Shown piece by piece: positions 57,872-60,588 of a stretch of 64,000 nucleotides of DNA. The stretch's first letter is position 1. Each line of letters starts with the position of its first letter. Location: the IMG/VR virus record IMGVR_UViG_3300003324_000465, positions 32,001-96,000 of that record, one strand, 5' to 3'. The stretch is from a virus. The notes under the pieces are model-generated. The model saw only the letters and a list, made by a program, of their open reading frames with translations. It did not search any database and was not told where the DNA came from. The position numbers and the translations under genes are program-made.

Positions 57872-57946
57872 GCGTCAATGATGTAATTGGTAGCATATTG
57901 CTCTCCAAAAGCAAGCGTTAGGGTTCAAATCCTTATTGACGTGCCA
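57872..57946 (+). tRNA. tRNA-Trp (CCA)
   Basis: Cloverleaf, CTCCAAA loop, GCCA end. Confidence 0.92.
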
Positions 57947-58083
57947 TATATAATATAGCGGTTTATAGAATTACAACGCTTACCAAACACCAAGCTATAA
58001 TACGTTCGATTCGTATATGGGCTAATGGAAAACCTCTCGCAAGAGAACTGCCCACATATTCTATAAGATATTCGTATTATATA
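57947..58083 (+). ncRNA. Y RNA-like module 1
   Basis: Terminal helix, AGCGG / ATATTC internal loop, second helix, TACAACG; contains T arm ATACG-TTCGATT-CGTAT. Confidence 0.75.
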
Positions 58084-58096
58084 AAACAAACACATA

Positions 58097-58207
58097 TACT
58101 GTAGCGGGAAAAATGCAATACAACGTTTATTTGATTAATAAAACACACTACGTTCAAATCGTACACTTGGGTTGGTTATCCCTTTTTGCTTTTTCATATT
58201 CACAGTA
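58097..58207 (+). ncRNA. Y RNA-like module 2
   Basis: TACTGT-AGCGG...TACAACG...ATATTC-ACAGTA; anticodon-like hairpin plus T loop TTCAAAT. Confidence 0.75.
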
Positions 58208-58234
58208 ATTATAATATTTGCGGGCAATATTTAC

Positions 58235-58307
58235 GGAAACATGGTGTAAGCAGCATACATCTAGGAATAGATGAGGCGTAATGGGTTGGACTCCCACGTT
58301 TCCATCA
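58235..58307 (+). ncRNA. tRNA-like RNA with a GGAA tetraloop in place of the anticodon loop
   Basis: GGAAAC/GTTTCC acceptor, D-like arm, CATCTA-GGAA-TAGATG, TGGG-TTGGACT-CCCA; ends ATCA, no CCA. Confidence 0.55.
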
Positions 58308-58312
58308 CATAC

Positions 58313-58440
58313 AATACTATGTAGCGGAAAAATCCTTTACAACGAATAACATATGCCTTGTTAATGTGGTGATACACGTAAAAATATTCTGCGATGCGCT
58401 ACAGTTACGCATTATAGGATTTTTATATTCGCATAGCATT
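58313..58440 (+). ncRNA. Y RNA-like module 3
   Basis: CTATGT-AGCGG-AAAAATCCT...TACAACG...AGGATTTTT-ATATTC-GCATAG. Confidence 0.75.
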
Positions 58441-58504
58441 CAAAAGAAAAAAAAACATTATTAAATGGTTTTATCGACTTGCCAAATACAAGTATAATAT
58501 TTAA

Positions 58505-58647
58505 TTTTCTGTAGCGGATGTCAGCGATTACAACGCATTACGAGCGGGTGATTGTAGGTTCGAGTCCTACTGTCTGTACCATGTATACAGACATAGCTTA
58601 ATGGCAAAGCACCTAAAATATATCGCGGGCAATTATTCACAGAAGAA
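58505..58647 (+). ncRNA. Y RNA-like module 4 (YrlA-type) containing a circularly permuted tRNA-Val(TAC)
   Basis: Same scaffold; interior order anticodon loop - T arm - acceptor 3' strand+CCA - acceptor 5' strand - D arm. Confidence 0.85.
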
Positions 58648-58657
58648 CAATGATAAT

Positions 58658-58750
58658 AAGCTGCTACAGCGGAAATACAAGTACAACGAATATTTTTAGA
58701 CAAAATTAACCGTAAACACCTTGTATTTAATATCCGTAGCAGCTTTTTTT
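58658..58750 (+). ncRNA. Y RNA-like module 5 (minimal), ending in a U-tract
   Basis: AAGCTGCTAC-AGCGG-AAATACAAG-TACAACG...CTTGTATTT-AATATCC-GTAGCAGCTT followed by a T-run. Confidence 0.75.
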
Positions 58751-58787
58751 ATGATTCATCAGCCAAGTATTCAAGAAAGGATTTTTT

Positions 58788-58989
58788 ATGCTAGATTTTT
58801 TTAAAGCAACAGAAGAAAATGGTTTGCGTTTTACTTCATGATGGTGATTATATGTGGATAACTGAAAACGAAGCATTTTCAGGACAGCCTATTATTGCTA
58901 CTGCAGTAATGTATAGGAATCATCCCTTAAGTGATTGGCAATTTGATGAAGAAAGTATCGATATACTAGATTCTAAGTATACTAAATAA
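58788..58989 (+). pseudogene. Small ORF broken by a 1-nt frameshift in a T7 run
   Basis: RBS-ATG frame stops after about 17 codons; deleting one T gives MLDFLKQQKKMVCVLLHD...SKYTK. Confidence 0.4.
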
Positions 58990-59031
58990 TTCGCGGGCAA
59001 TTTATAAACCGTAGCAAAGGAATAAAATAAC

Positions 59032-60588
59032 ATGAGAAAAAATTTAACACAGGGATCAAAGAAAACAGTCAGTACAAAGCCGGTGGCACCAGTAGCCATG
59101 GGAGTAGCTCATAATCCTAATTATCGGTCAACACCAGTATCTTCATTTGAAGGCAATACTAACTATAAGCTTGATCCAATTGCAACATTGAAACTGGTAA
59201 CTGCAAGTTCATTTTTTGGTGAGCCTTCTTTTTATGAAGGAAATACACGTACAGCGTTATTTGAACAGACAATTGACGCGGCCCTTGATTATGATTTTTA
59301 TGCGACACTTGATTGGGCTGGTGTATTACGTAATGCGTATTATATGCGCCTTAATCCTCAAATCATCATGACAAGAGCAGCAGTGCATCCAAAGCGTGGT
59401 GAGTTTACAAAACAATATCCCGGCGCATTTAATACATTTATGGAAATTGTTGCGAAAAGACCGGATGATCTTACTGCACAGGTAGAATATTACTTGTCAA
59501 AGTTTGAAGATCGTAAGGTTCATGGGGTTAAAGCCTCTCGTATGCCTGGAATTATGAAGCGTTCAATAGCACACCGTCTTGAGCAATTTAATCGTTATCA
59601 AATGGCGAAATATGCTAATCGTGGTATCGGTTTAATTGATATAGTTCGTTTAACACATGCTCATGGAGCATTAATTAACGAACTTATGAAAACTGGCGGA
59701 ATTAGTATCGATGAGGAAGACCAAACATGGCGTACTATGCGTAGCGCTGGTAAGTCATGGACAGAGATTATTAATTCAGGCATCACACTAACACACCAAG
59801 ATATACTTTTTCAAATGCGTTCTATTTTTGATTCTGTTAAGGGTGATACTGCTCAATATATTGCGGGCAAATTTCTTAATGGGGTCAAGAATGGTAAAAT
59901 GTTCCCATATCAGTATTATATTGCTTTTCAGCAATTGAGTGAGGATACATTCAGTAATAAGATACTAGCGTTAGATACACTTCAAGAAGCCCTTGATATG
60001 TCTATTCGAGAACAGCCAAAATTAGGCGGAAGTGTTGCGGTTGTGGCAGATAATAGCGGATCTATGAATAATCCACTTAAAGTAGACGGTCATCAAGTTA
60101 CAGCAGCGGAAGTAGCTAATTTATCTGCAATTATGACAGCCTACAATGCTACTGATGGAGATGTATTCTCGTTTGGTACCACGTTAGCAAAGTTATCATA
60201 TAGCAAGCGTGATGGTATAATGACAAATGCAAAACGGCTTGCTGATTTATCTACTGGATGGGGCACAAATATGGGATTGTTCTGGCAATACGCTATACAA
60301 CATAAAAAGAGTTATGATACCGTATTTGTATATAGTGATATGCAAGCTCTACCTGTTTCTGGATACGGTTATAACAACGAAGTAAGAAACATGTATGACA
60401 TTGTGAACGAATATCGCCGCAAGCTAAATCCAAAGGTAAATGTTTTCTACGTGCAAGTAGCAGGCTATGATAATAGTGTACAACCAGATAATACATATCG
60501 TGCAACTAACCTGTCTGGATGGACAGGTAAAGAGGTTATGTATGCTGCTGCTGTAAATGCTGTGTGGGATGAAGTAGATAGTAAATAA
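59032..60588 (+). CDS. Ro60/TROVE-domain RNA-binding protein with C-terminal vWA domain
   Basis: SSFFGEPSFY, R...YMRLNP, RPDD, YQMAKY, DIVRLTH, MFPYQY; vWA MIDAS DNSGSM, GT, VYSDMQ. Confidence 0.92.
   Translation: MRKNLTQGSKKTVSTKPVAPVAMGVAHNPNYRSTPVSSFEGNTNYKLDPIATLKLVTASSFFGEPSFYEGNTRTALFEQTIDAALDYDFYATLDWAGVLRNAYYMRLNPQIIMTRAAVHPKRGEFTKQYPGAFNTFMEIVAKRPDDLTAQVEYYLSKFEDRKVHGVKASRMPGIMKRSIAHRLEQFNRYQMAKYANRGIGLIDIVRLTHAHGALINELMKTGGISIDEEDQTWRTMRSAGKSWTEIINSGITLTHQDILFQMRSIFDSVKGDTAQYIAGKFLNGVKNGKMFPYQYYIAFQQLSEDTFSNKILALDTLQEALDMSIREQPKLGGSVAVVADNSGSMNNPLKVDGHQVTAAEVANLSAIMTAYNATDGDVFSFGTTLAKLSYSKRDGIMTNAKRLADLSTGWGTNMGLFWQYAIQHKKSYDTVFVYSDMQALPVSGYGYNNEVRNMYDIVNEYRRKLNPKVNVFYVQVAGYDNSVQPDNTYRATNLSGWTGKEVMYAAAVNAVWDEVDSK

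What the first reader, a model, noticed from the sequence alone, without database searches (positions are those of the whole stretch)
58535..58614. Complete circularly permuted tRNA-Val(UAC), with anticodon loop and internal CCA, inside Y module 4
Seen, 5' to 3': GC-ATTACGA-GCGGG (anticodon loop with TAC), variable loop, GTAGG-TTCGAGT-CCTAC (T arm), TGTCTGT-A-CCA (acceptor 3' strand, discriminator, CCA), a short linker, ACAGACA (acceptor 5' strand), TA, GCTT-AATGGCA-AAGC (D arm), A-CCT. CCT plus GC rebuild the 5' anticodon strand pairing with GCGGG, so the tRNA is opened between positions 29 and 30 and the Ro-binding stem is grafted there. Established: YrlA has T-acceptor-D order. Inference: retention of both an anticodon loop and an encoded CCA suggests recent derivation from a real tRNA, possibly via a circular intermediate, and perhaps processing into a chargeable two-piece tRNA. 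No other tRNA-Val lies in the window.
Basis: partly seen in the sequence, partly recalled or inferred. Interest (0 to 1): 0.82.

Follow-up and report, generated by a model that had tools for sequence, protein, structure and literature searches.

The report
Phage Y RNA carrying whole-tRNA mimic
Just upstream of a phage's Ro60 gene lies a small RNA gene whose middle is a back-to-front but otherwise complete tRNA look-alike, anticodon-type loop and built-in CCA included; this design recurs in many Ro60-carrying phages and goes one step beyond the published bacterial YrlA RNAs, which are said to lack both.

Summary
In detail: every element is at the stated coordinates. The stretch is the cargo of the fourth of five tandem Y-RNA modules (58505-58646) upstream of a phage Ro60 gene.

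The rearranged sequence is called tRNA-Val(UAC) by ARAGORN, but that test is empty. 500 of 500 random replacements of the anticodon segment are also called tRNA.

The real support is comparative:
- A covariance model built only from 15 elements of other Ro60 phages finds 58528-58618 end to end (70 bits, E about 2e-16), anticodon hairpin and split stem included.
- Among 36 distinct permuted tRNA-like elements beside Ro60 genes, 20 have 2 bp, a 7-nt loop, U33 and a purine at 37 in the exact tRNA register. Shifted registers give 0-4; the background rate is 2.8%.
- Six have NCCA after the acceptor strand (background 1%).

So the split at 29/30 is a conserved family design, not a recent tRNA-Val derivative. 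The phage's own tRNA-Val(UAC), just outside the window, is its least similar tRNA.

It is a new variant of YrlA, whose published forms lack an anticodon loop and a free CCA. Function is inferred. This scan had already noted related tRNA-shaped Y RNAs beside phage Ro60 genes on other DNA.

The parts
58505..58512 (+). Basal stem A, 5' strand (UUUUCUGU), pairs with 58639-58646
   Evidence: MFE fold; same position as the basal stem of modules 1, 2 and 5
58513..58517 (+). Conserved 5' internal-loop motif AGCGG (family: (A/U)GC(A/G)G), presumed Ro60 contact
   Evidence: Present in all five window modules and before helix B in nearly all of the 36 related elements
58520..58527 (+). Helix B, 5' strand (GUCAGCGA), pairs with 58623-58630
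   Evidence: 7 of 8 pairs; helix B differs in sequence but stays paired across the family
58528..58534 (+). Conserved single-stranded motif UUACAAC (family UUACUUC)
   Evidence: Five copies in the window array; present in the 36 related elements
58535..58545 (+). Anticodon-arm mimic: GC / AUUACGA / GC (tRNA positions 30-40; U33, 'anticodon' UAC, G37)
   Evidence: Register-specific feature in 20 of 36 relatives; pairs 30:40 and 31:39 kept through changes on both sides; aligned as paired by the leave-one-out model
58546..58548 (+). GGG, tRNA positions 41-43, pairs with CCU 58612-58614
   Evidence: Covariation of 27:43 and 28:42; Rfam YrlA alignment pairs G58547 and G58548 with C58613 and C58612
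58549..58553 (+). Variable loop UGAUU (U48 can form the Levitt pair with A15)
   Evidence: Read; ARAGORN cloverleaf
58554..58570 (+). T arm GUAGG-UUCGAGU-CCUAC
58571..58593 (+). Acceptor stem closed into a hairpin: UGUCUGU, then A73-CCA and linker UGUAU, then ACAGACA (7 bp)
   Evidence: NCCA at this place in 6 of 36 relatives against about 1% background
58594..58611 (+). U8 A9, D arm GCUU-AAUGGCA-AAGC (A14, G18 G19, A21), A26
58612..58614 (+). CCU, tRNA positions 27-29, pairs with GGG 58546-58548
58623..58630 (+). Helix B, 3' strand (UCGCGGGC); overlaps a copy of the genome-wide GCGGGCAA motif
58631..58638 (+). Conserved 3' internal-loop motif AAUUAUUC (family AAUUAUUCUC)
58639..58646 (+). Basal stem A, 3' strand (ACAGAAGA)
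59032..60588 (+). Ro60/TROVE protein gene (518 aa), presumed partner
   Evidence: Pfam vWA_Ro60; 39% identity to Bacillus phage G gp540, annotated as a TROVE-domain RNA-binding protein; about 2000 homologues

Best explanation
Window 58505-58646 encodes one module of a five-module Y-RNA array that serves the phage's own Ro60 protein. SHOWN BY SEQUENCE COMPARISON: a basal stem and a second helix, with the conserved AGCGG / AAUUAUUC internal loop and the UUACAAC motif, form the family's shared handle. This handle carries a circularly permuted tRNA-shaped domain in the order T arm, closed 7-bp acceptor stem, D arm. The anticodon arm is rebuilt from two pieces. One is a 2-bp hairpin with a 7-nt loop of anticodon-loop type (U33, G37). 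It stacks (inferred) on a 3-bp helix made by GGG and the CCU that follows the D arm, and the two handle strands leave at the 29/30 nick. This exact wiring is a conserved design of a subfamily of phage Ro60-associated RNAs. INFERRED: the handle binds Ro60, and the complete L-shaped mimic recruits or occupies a factor that reads whole tRNAs. Candidates are tRNA-modifying enzymes, RNase P, the 3'-end machinery, or a host enzyme that probes anticodon loops. The loop's shape, not its triplet, is what selection keeps. Because M4 has a 7-bp acceptor stem, A73, an encoded CCA and U at -1, it may be opened by RNase P between U58586 and A58587 and trimmed to ...ACCA, as shown for M. smegmatis YrlA. I put that step at about one in three.
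For: Position and strand: 386 bases upstream of, and on the same strand as, a Ro60 gene. Rfam YrlA matches 58521-58632 over the full model (30.1 bits, E 5e-4). Leave-one-out model R1 (15 elements from other phages, M4 left out) hits 58528-58618 over positions 1-92 at 70.2 bits, E about 2e-16, with all 21 pairs; the next hit in the window scores 14.7 bits, and tandem-tRNA artefacts in other loci reach at most about 50 bits. Structure counts on 17 members: 95.7% of cells paired against 66% in shuffles and 29-49% with slid partners; 19 of 21 pairs show changes on both sides. Unselected descriptor set: 20 of 36 elements (12 of 24 clusters at 75% identity, binomial p about 4e-13) have the hairpin, U33 and R37 in the tRNA register, against 0-4 in eleven shifted registers. 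NCCA is present in 6 of 36 elements (5 of 24 clusters, p about 3e-6). The handle motifs and a covarying helix B are shared by M4 and the family. All five window modules share the handle motifs, and modules 1, 2, 4 and 5 fold into the same handle in their MFE folds; M4 has z -2.6. At least 24 of the phage's 27 tRNA genes encode CCA, so an encoded CCA is what a tRNA-derived module of such phages would carry. Literature: M. smegmatis YrlA with a 7-bp acceptor stem is cut by RNase P and gains CCA in vivo (PMC4201824); phage phiLo Ro60 binds phage Y-like RNAs and host PNPase (PMC12135203).
Against: There is no transcript, binding or processing data, and the host is unknown (metagenomic phage record). 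A 2-bp hairpin has almost no stability of its own. RNAalifold predicts only the T, acceptor and D arms, and the MFE fold of M4 uses a 3-bp variant, C58534-G58546. Pair 29:41 is unpaired in 9 of 17 relatives. The Rfam YrlA score is far below the gathering score (30 against 69), and the published GNCGAAN0-1G motif is not present as such. Alignment A2 was hand-picked, and the descriptor demands a 7-bp acceptor stem and the UUAC motif, so the family frequencies are conditional on those. Related sequences are not independent; clustering only partly corrects for this. The 3' strand of helix B coincides with a genome-wide promoter-like motif, so part of that complementarity may serve transcription. 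M4 has no close orthologue (75-84% over aligned positions).
Confidence: 0.8

Rival explanations
1. It is a working permuted (or two-piece) tRNA-Val gene. The RNA is cut at the acceptor linker, perhaps religated at the anticodon stem, is charged by ValRS and decodes GUN codons.
For: The rearranged sequence has every tRNA hallmark (U8, A14, G18G19, A21, U33, T-loop UUCGAGU, 7-bp acceptor stem, A73, CCA). From memory, A35, C36 and A73 are E. coli ValRS identity elements. M. smegmatis YrlA is cut by RNase P and gains CCA (PMC4201824). Wang et al. raise the possibility of such processing (10.1101/312249).
Against: The phage already has a normal tRNA-Val(UAC) (genome 96616-96690). The 'anticodon' is not conserved in relatives, while the loop shape is. 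The nearest loop, in phage G, reads UAU. G37 is unusual for tRNA-Val (own knowledge; the phage's own tRNA-Val has A37). The strands at the 29/30 nick run into a conserved handle shared with four modules that carry no complete tRNA mimic. No RtcB or CCA-adding enzyme was found in the record; a T4 Rnl1 search also found nothing, but it rang in no control genome and so shows no absence. Many relatives have 3-4-nt acceptor loops that cannot yield a CCA end.
Confidence: 0.06
2. The anticodon-type loop and the CCA are neutral leftovers of the way such modules arise: capture of the junction of two tandem tRNA gene copies into a Y-RNA handle. They are not themselves under selection.
For: The order 'anticodon loop, 3' half, NCCA, A/U-rich spacer, 5' half' is exactly the junction of two adjacent tRNA genes, and these phages pack CCA-encoding tRNA genes a few bases apart. 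Acceptor loops that keep NCCA look like intergenic spacers. Other family members have lost the hairpin or the CCA.
Against: U33 and R37 and the 7-nt loop size are kept in 12 of 24 clusters while the triplet and the stem sequences change, with compensatory changes in the 2-bp stem. The Ro60 proteins of these phages are only 27-43% identical to this one, so relics would have had time to decay.
Confidence: 0.1
3. Chance resemblance: an ordinary YrlA-type T/acceptor/D module whose flanks happen to look like an anticodon loop and a CCA.
For: For one sequence the odds are not extreme: 2.8% for the hairpin features and about 1% for CCA. G58535 belongs to the conserved UACAACG motif found in all five modules. 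ARAGORN would call a tRNA whatever sits there.
Against: The same features in the same register recur across the family, and M4 is aligned through them by a model that never saw it.
Confidence: 0.03

Closest known systems
YrlA (Y RNA-like A; Rfam RF02553) of S. Typhimurium, M. smegmatis and mycobacteriophages (Chen et al. 2014, PMC4201824; Wang et al. 2018, bioRxiv 10.1101/312249)
   Same: It is encoded beside Ro60 on the same strand. The 5' and 3' ends pair into a Ro-binding stem. The effector domain is a circularly permuted tRNA mimic in T arm, closed acceptor stem, D arm order. M. smegmatis YrlA also has a 7-bp acceptor stem; it is cut by RNase P and gains CCA. Several Y RNAs per locus are known.
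   Different: Published YrlA 'lacks the anticodon loop' and 'lacks a free CCA end' (10.1101/312249). Here a side hairpin restores an anticodon-type loop and the CCA is encoded. The handle motifs differ (AGCGG / UUACAAC / AAUUAUUC instead of GNCGAAN0-1G). The Rfam score is 30 bits against a threshold of 69. Five modules share one handle.
D. radiodurans Yrn1
   Same: It is a Ro60-bound Y RNA that can be drawn with a T arm and a possible 'anticodon arm' (PMC4201824).
   Different: In Yrn1 the arm order is the other way round, the loop has 6 nt, and no variable arm or clear D arm is seen. The authors regard it as independently evolved.
Circularly permuted tRNA genes of Cyanidioschyzon merolae (Soma et al. 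2007, as cited in 10.1101/312249)
   Same: The 3' half is encoded before the 5' half. The acceptor stem is first a closed loop that holds the future ends. The termini pair near the anticodon region.
   Different: Those are true tRNA precursors, processed through a circular intermediate by the eukaryotic or archaeal splicing endonuclease and ligase. Here the termini continue into a conserved Ro60 handle, the phage has a normal tRNA with the same anticodon, and no such enzymes are evident.
Thermus phage phiLo Ro60 with Yrl1/Yrl2 (PMC12135203)
   Same: The phage encodes Ro60 with Y-like RNAs upstream, and experiment shows them to bind it and host PNPase.
   Different: Those RNAs were defined by a CGAA motif in a stem-bulge-stem structure. 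I found no tRNA-like cargo described for them in the passages I read.
tmRNA and viral tRNA-like structures (TYMV TLS)
   Same: They are tRNA mimics that keep a CCA end and an anticodon-domain mimic, features tied to charging (10.1101/312249).
   Different: They have free 3' ends by design and no Ro60 handle. For this element charging is unproven.

Membership tests
YrlA (Rfam RF02553; Chen et al. 2014) | Lies within about 4 kb of a Ro60/TROVE gene, on the same strand | tested here: met
   The module ends at 58646 and Ro60 starts at 59032, both on the + strand
YrlA (Rfam RF02553; Chen et al. 2014) | Reaches the Rfam gathering score (69 bits) | tested here: not met
   30.1 bits, E 5e-4, full-length match to the model at 58521-58632; relatives in other phages score 30-42 bits
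YrlA (Rfam RF02553; Chen et al. 2014) | T arm, loop-closed acceptor stem and D arm in that order, enclosed by a stem made from the 5' and 3' segments | tested here: met
YrlA (Rfam RF02553; Chen et al. 2014) | GNCGAAN0-1G motif near the 5' end | tested here: not met
   No exact match in 58505-58535. The closest is AGCGAU, which Rfam aligns to GGCGAA. The family's conserved 5' motif is (A/U)GC(A/G)G.
YrlA (Rfam RF02553; Chen et al. 2014) | Bound by Ro60; carries tRNA modifications (pseudouridine 55, dihydrouridine) | not testable with these tools
   Needs biochemistry
Phage Ro60-associated Y RNAs with UUACNNC handle and split anticodon arm (defined here; model R1) | Significant full-length match to a model built without the query | tested here: met
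   70.2 bits, E about 2e-16, model positions 1-92, all 21 pairs; it ranks among true members
Phage Ro60-associated Y RNAs with UUACNNC handle and split anticodon arm (defined here; model R1) | Handle: 5' (A/U)GC(A/G)G, 8-bp helix B, UUACNNC; 3' helix B strand followed by AAUUAUUC | tested here: met
   AGCGG, GUCAGCGA/UCGCGGGC (7 of 8 pairs), UUACAAC, AAUUAUUC
Phage Ro60-associated Y RNAs with UUACNNC handle and split anticodon arm (defined here; model R1) | 2-bp (rarely 3-bp) hairpin with a 7-nt loop, U33 and R37, directly 5' of the 41-43 strand, which pairs with the segment after the D arm | tested here: met
   GC-AUUACGA-GC, GGG/CCU; family statistics
Canonical tRNA gene | Contiguous cloverleaf found in the native order | tested here: not met
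   ARAGORN finds no tRNA here. The Rfam tRNA model gives only a partial 19.4-bit match, below its threshold of 29.
Circularly permuted tRNA gene (C. merolae type) | Supplies a tRNA species that the genome otherwise lacks | tested here: not met
   A normal tRNA-Val(tac) lies at genome 96616-96690
Circularly permuted tRNA gene (C. merolae type) | Termini form a bulge-helix-bulge substrate for a splicing endonuclease and are ligated through a circular intermediate | not tested
   Not examined formally. The termini continue into the conserved Y handle. RtcB was not found in the phage record; T4 Rnl1 was not found either, but that search rang in no control genome.

The most novel reading that the evidence does not exclude
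A subfamily of phage Y RNAs uses the Ro60 handle to display complete tRNA mimics with varied anticodon-like triplets: an anticodon-type loop with U33 and R37 and, in some, a ready-made CCA. These are opened by RNase P into two-piece RNAs. They then either become charged or act as bait or decoy for host enzymes that inspect or cut tRNA anticodon loops during infection. This would tie Ro60 RNPs to the tRNA-centred arms race between phages and bacteria.
Probability: 0.15. Interest if true: 0.85.

Novelty: new variant of a known kind. Interest (0 to 1): 0.6.

Why it matters
What the tRNA-like domain of bacterial Y RNAs is for remains open. The published view is that YrlA mimics only the tRNA body and lacks the two ends that matter for translation, the anticodon loop and a free CCA. 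Here a widespread phage subfamily keeps an anticodon-type loop in the exact tRNA register, and some members keep an encoded CCA. This argues that the whole tRNA shape is under selection. It also narrows the search for the unknown partner to factors that read the anticodon arm or the 3' end. It supplies a concrete set of sequences (this module, the Bacillus phage G element and about 20 others) on which RNase P cutting, Ro60 binding, modification and charging can be tested. It also suggests how such RNAs arise, by capture of the junction between tandem tRNA genes.

Tried and rejected
1. It is positive, but the control showed it cannot fail (500/500), so I give it no weight for the anticodon arm.

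2. Search for a parent tRNA. Global alignment to all 27 tRNAs of the phage found none close, with tRNA-Val the least similar. A nearest-neighbour test against 298 phage tRNAs with the anticodon loop masked showed only a weak, unconvincing tendency for the body to match the isotype of the 'anticodon'. I dropped the idea that the modules keep isotype identity.

3. DNA similarity search against GenBank phages with 57900-59100 gave no match.

4. The motif scan GTAGCGG-N9-12-TACAACG in IMG/VR returned only single, apparently chance matches.

5. The Ro60 protein used alone as a query in IMG/VR found nothing; an alignment was needed.

The contigs of the closest Ro60 relatives (P0002-P0009, 46-53% identity) could therefore not be fetched, and a true orthologue of module 4 could not be sought. 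The metagenome scan gave only relatives of 43% identity or less.

7. RNAalifold on the family alignment does not recover the two short helices.

8. RtcB and the CCA-adding enzyme were not found in the phage record. A T4 Rnl1 search also found nothing, but its control rang nowhere, so it shows no absence.

9. No supplementary tables of Chen et al. 2014 are held, so I could not check whether their phage G YrlA is the element found here.

Full report
CONTEXT. The window is bases 32001-96000 of a 106,876-base IMG/VR phage record with direct terminal repeats and 35% G+C. The record carries 27 tRNA genes, and at least 24 of them encode their CCA. A 518-aa Ro60/TROVE protein is encoded at 59032-60588 (+). 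It matches Pfam vWA_Ro60 and is 39% identical to Bacillus phage G gp540, with about 2000 homologues. The finding lies 386 bases upstream of that gene, on the same strand.

THE OBSERVATION. Native-order tools find no tRNA there. ARAGORN is silent, and the Rfam tRNA model gives a partial 19-bit match. The Rfam YrlA model matches 58521-58632 over its full length, but at 30.1 bits against a gathering score of 69 (E 5e-4). Joining 58587-58614 to 58535-58581 gives a sequence that ARAGORN calls tRNA-Val(tac) with a perfect cloverleaf.

I then tested whether that call means anything for the anticodon arm. When 58535-58545 is replaced by random 11-mers of local composition, ARAGORN still calls a tRNA in 500 of 500 cases. 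The call rests entirely on the T, acceptor and D arms, which any YrlA has.

THE MODULE AROUND IT. Five units share YRYAGCGG-N9-11-UACAACG on the 5' side; these five joint occurrences are the only ones in the genome. On the 3' side they share a strand that pairs with the N9-11, then (A/U)UAU(U/C)C, then a basal stem. The units start near 57947, 58097, 58313, 58505 and 58658. MFE folds of units 1, 2, 4 and 5 give the same plan of basal stem, internal loop, second helix and variable interior. Unit 4 has z -2.6 and unit 5 has z -5.4. This agrees with the earlier first-reader note e1-6024402. Only unit 4 carries a complete tRNA-like interior. Units 1 and 2 carry T-arm-like hairpins.

RELATIVES. An alignment of the twelve best Ro60 homologues (A1) retrieved 79 IMG/VR loci and 80 metagenome loci encoding Ro60 relatives of 27-43% identity. 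One of them is Bacillus phage G (L184).

A simple descriptor that ignores the anticodon region was run on these loci. It asks for a T arm, a 7-bp acceptor hairpin and a D arm, with no overlap of an ARAGORN tRNA. It finds many permuted tRNA-like elements next to Ro60, often two to four in a row. They share one handle: (A/U)GC(A/G)G, an 8-bp helix that covaries, UUACUUC, the cargo, the 3' helix strand, then AAUUAUUCUC. Module 4 has AGCGG, GUCAGCGA/UCGCGGGC, UUACAAC and AAUUAUUC. Rfam YrlA scores these relatives at 30-42 bits. They are therefore a divergent, sub-threshold branch of the YrlA kind.

THE ANTICODON-ARM MIMIC IS A FAMILY FEATURE. There are 36 distinct elements with the UUACNNC motif. 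I measured features at fixed offsets from the T arm, so no alignment could bias the count. At the exact tRNA register, 20 elements have two standard pairs flanking a 7-nt loop with U at position 2 (U33) and a purine at position 6 (R37). Eleven shifted registers give 0-4, and random positions in the same loci give 2.8%. After single-linkage clustering at 75% identity, 12 of 24 clusters have the feature (binomial p about 4e-13).

The loops differ in the 'anticodon': UGG, GGG, AGG, GAG, GUU, GAU, UGU, UAU, and here UAC. They keep their size, U33 and R37. On a 17-member alignment, pair 30:40 is GC13/UA2/AU1 and pair 31:39 is CG10/AU2/UA2. The segment before the variable loop covaries with the segment after the D arm: 28:42 is AU5/CG5/GC3/UA3 and 27:43 is GC13/UA3. 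Pair 29:41 is mostly open. The whole structure has 95.7% paired cells, against 66% in shuffles and 29-49% with slid partners. That alignment was hand-picked, which is why I rely on the fixed-offset count for frequencies.

A covariance model was built from 15 elements of other phages with module 4 left out. It finds 58528-58618 end to end at 70.2 bits (E about 2e-16) and aligns the GC...GC hairpin and GGG/CCU as pairs. The next hit in the window scores 14.7 bits. Across the other loci, true members score 50-91 bits and junctions of adjacent tRNA genes score at most about 50. It is a conserved design.

THE CCA. NCCA directly after the acceptor 3' strand occurs in 6 of the 36 elements. These are module 4 and phage G (ACCA), L179 (GCCA), and L152, L164 and L264 (CCCA). 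That is 5 of 24 clusters, against a CCA frequency of 0.97% per position (p about 3e-6). Many members have 3-8-nt loops without it, so an openable CCA end is an option in the family, not a rule.

WHAT IS NOT SUPPORTED. Recent descent from tRNA-Val is not supported. The phage's genuine tRNA-Val(tac), at genome 96616-96690 just outside the window, is the least similar of its 27 tRNAs (52%), and the best match is 74%. Masking the anticodon loop and comparing bodies with 298 phage tRNAs gives no convincing isotype coherence. Module 4 has no close orthologue among the family members found (75-84% over aligned positions). The most similar loop, phage G's AUUAUGA, differs in the triplet. Nothing points to a circular intermediate, and no RtcB or T4-type ligase was found in the record (the T4-ligase search rang in none of its control genomes, so it shows no absence). 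The junction of two tandem, CCA-encoding tRNA genes would give the same order directly. This is inference, helped by the spacer-like look of the acceptor loops that keep NCCA.

MECHANISM.
- Shown by comparison: the handle, the permuted tRNA body, the split anticodon arm and the enrichment of CCA.
- Inferred from established work on Ro60 and Y RNAs: the handle binds the phage Ro60, and the cargo is the effector side (PMC4201824; 10.1101/312249; PMC12135203, where a phage Ro60 binds phage Y-like RNAs and host PNPase).
- Inferred from the conservation pattern: the factor addressed reads a whole tRNA, including an anticodon loop of the usual U-turn form, and does not read the triplet.
- Possible, about one in three: RNase P cuts between U58586 and A58587, favoured by the 7-bp stem, U at -1 and ACCA. 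Trimming then leaves ...ACCA, as in M. smegmatis YrlA, where a 7-bp stem was named as the determinant (PMC4201824).
- Speculative: charging with valine, or a decoy role against host enzymes that attack anticodon loops.

COMPARISON WITH WHAT IS KNOWN. [quoted passage not shown] So are the RNase P cut and CCA addition in one species, and the thought that some might be processed further (PMC4201824; 10.1101/312249). The same structural paper states that YrlA lacks the anticodon loop and a free CCA end. In the papers I could search I found no description of three things: the conserved, register-exact anticodon-type hairpin beside a split anticodon stem; the encoded CCA in a subset; and the distinct handle motifs, all in a phage subfamily. 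Chen et al. list YrlA-like RNAs in 22 phages, phage G among them according to PMC12135203. The phage G element is unannotated in GenBank, and I could not see their tables.

Earlier notes of this scan describe related tRNA-shaped Y RNAs beside phage Ro60 genes, and 'cassettes that wrap permuted tRNAs or bare anticodon loops', on other DNA. They are unchecked leads, but they mean that the general theme is not new to the scan.

VERDICT. This is a new variant of a known kind, of moderate to good interest.

Noticed in passing
window 2492, 12336, 22418, 29530, 32261(-), 46907, 49198, 55232, 56204, 57772, 58220, 58625, 58993, 59863, 62891, 63985(-): GCGGGCAA occurs 16 times in the window against 0.81 expected. 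It sits inside a longer consensus, about TATAATAATTCGCGGGCAATTAT, and is mostly on the + strand. Copies often lie 20-40 bases before start codons, for example 58993 before the Ro60 start at 59032. It is probably a phage-specific promoter or other control site. One copy coincides with the 3' strand of helix B of module 4.
   Followed up: partly
window 58235-58307: A tRNA-like sequence lies between modules 2 and 3. It has an acceptor-like stem GGAAACA/GUUUCC, a T-like arm with loop UUGGACU, and an anticodon stem capped by a GGAA-type loop. ARAGORN does not call it. An earlier first-reader note describes the same thing.
   Followed up: no
window 58658-58752: The basal stem of module 5 (GCUGCUAC...GUAGCAGC) is followed by a run of seven U, so it looks like an intrinsic terminator that closes the array. 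Its fold z-score is -5.4.
   Followed up: partly
window 58000-58016 and 58149-58163: Modules 1 and 2 carry T-arm-like hairpins (AUACG-UUCGAUU-CGUAU and UACG-UUCAAAU-CGUA) without a full tRNA body. The five modules therefore seem to display graded pieces of tRNA.
   Followed up: no
L136:5955-6382, L157:4467-4960, L149:5985-6218, L152:5922-6200, L179:5798-6072: In related phages two to four permuted tRNA-like Y modules with different anticodon-type loops sit in tandem right after the Ro60 gene. For example, Asn-like GUU and Pro-like UGG loops occur in the same array.
   Followed up: partly
L149:5615-5685, L152:5668-5736, L136:5694-5755: Short tRNA calls of 62-71 nt lie directly after the Ro60 stop codon: ARAGORN 'tRNA-Ser(tga)' in L149 and L152, and an Rfam tRNA match of 38 bits in L136. 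They may be the 'tRNA-shaped Y RNA' of reversed wiring that other reports of this scan describe.
   Followed up: no
L136:281-922; L163:7077-7477; L184:8593-8904: A ROOL RNA (277 bits) and tmRNA genes lie in the same tRNA/Ro60 islands of related phages.
   Followed up: no
L124:8255-8342 and about 60 other hits of model R1 at 27-50 bits: A model of a permuted tRNA also matches the junction of any two adjacent tRNA genes (3' half, spacer, 5' half). Searches for permuted tRNAs need this control.
   Followed up: yes
genome G000:96616-96690 (about 616 bases beyond the window's end): This is the phage's normal tRNA-Val(tac).
   Followed up: yes
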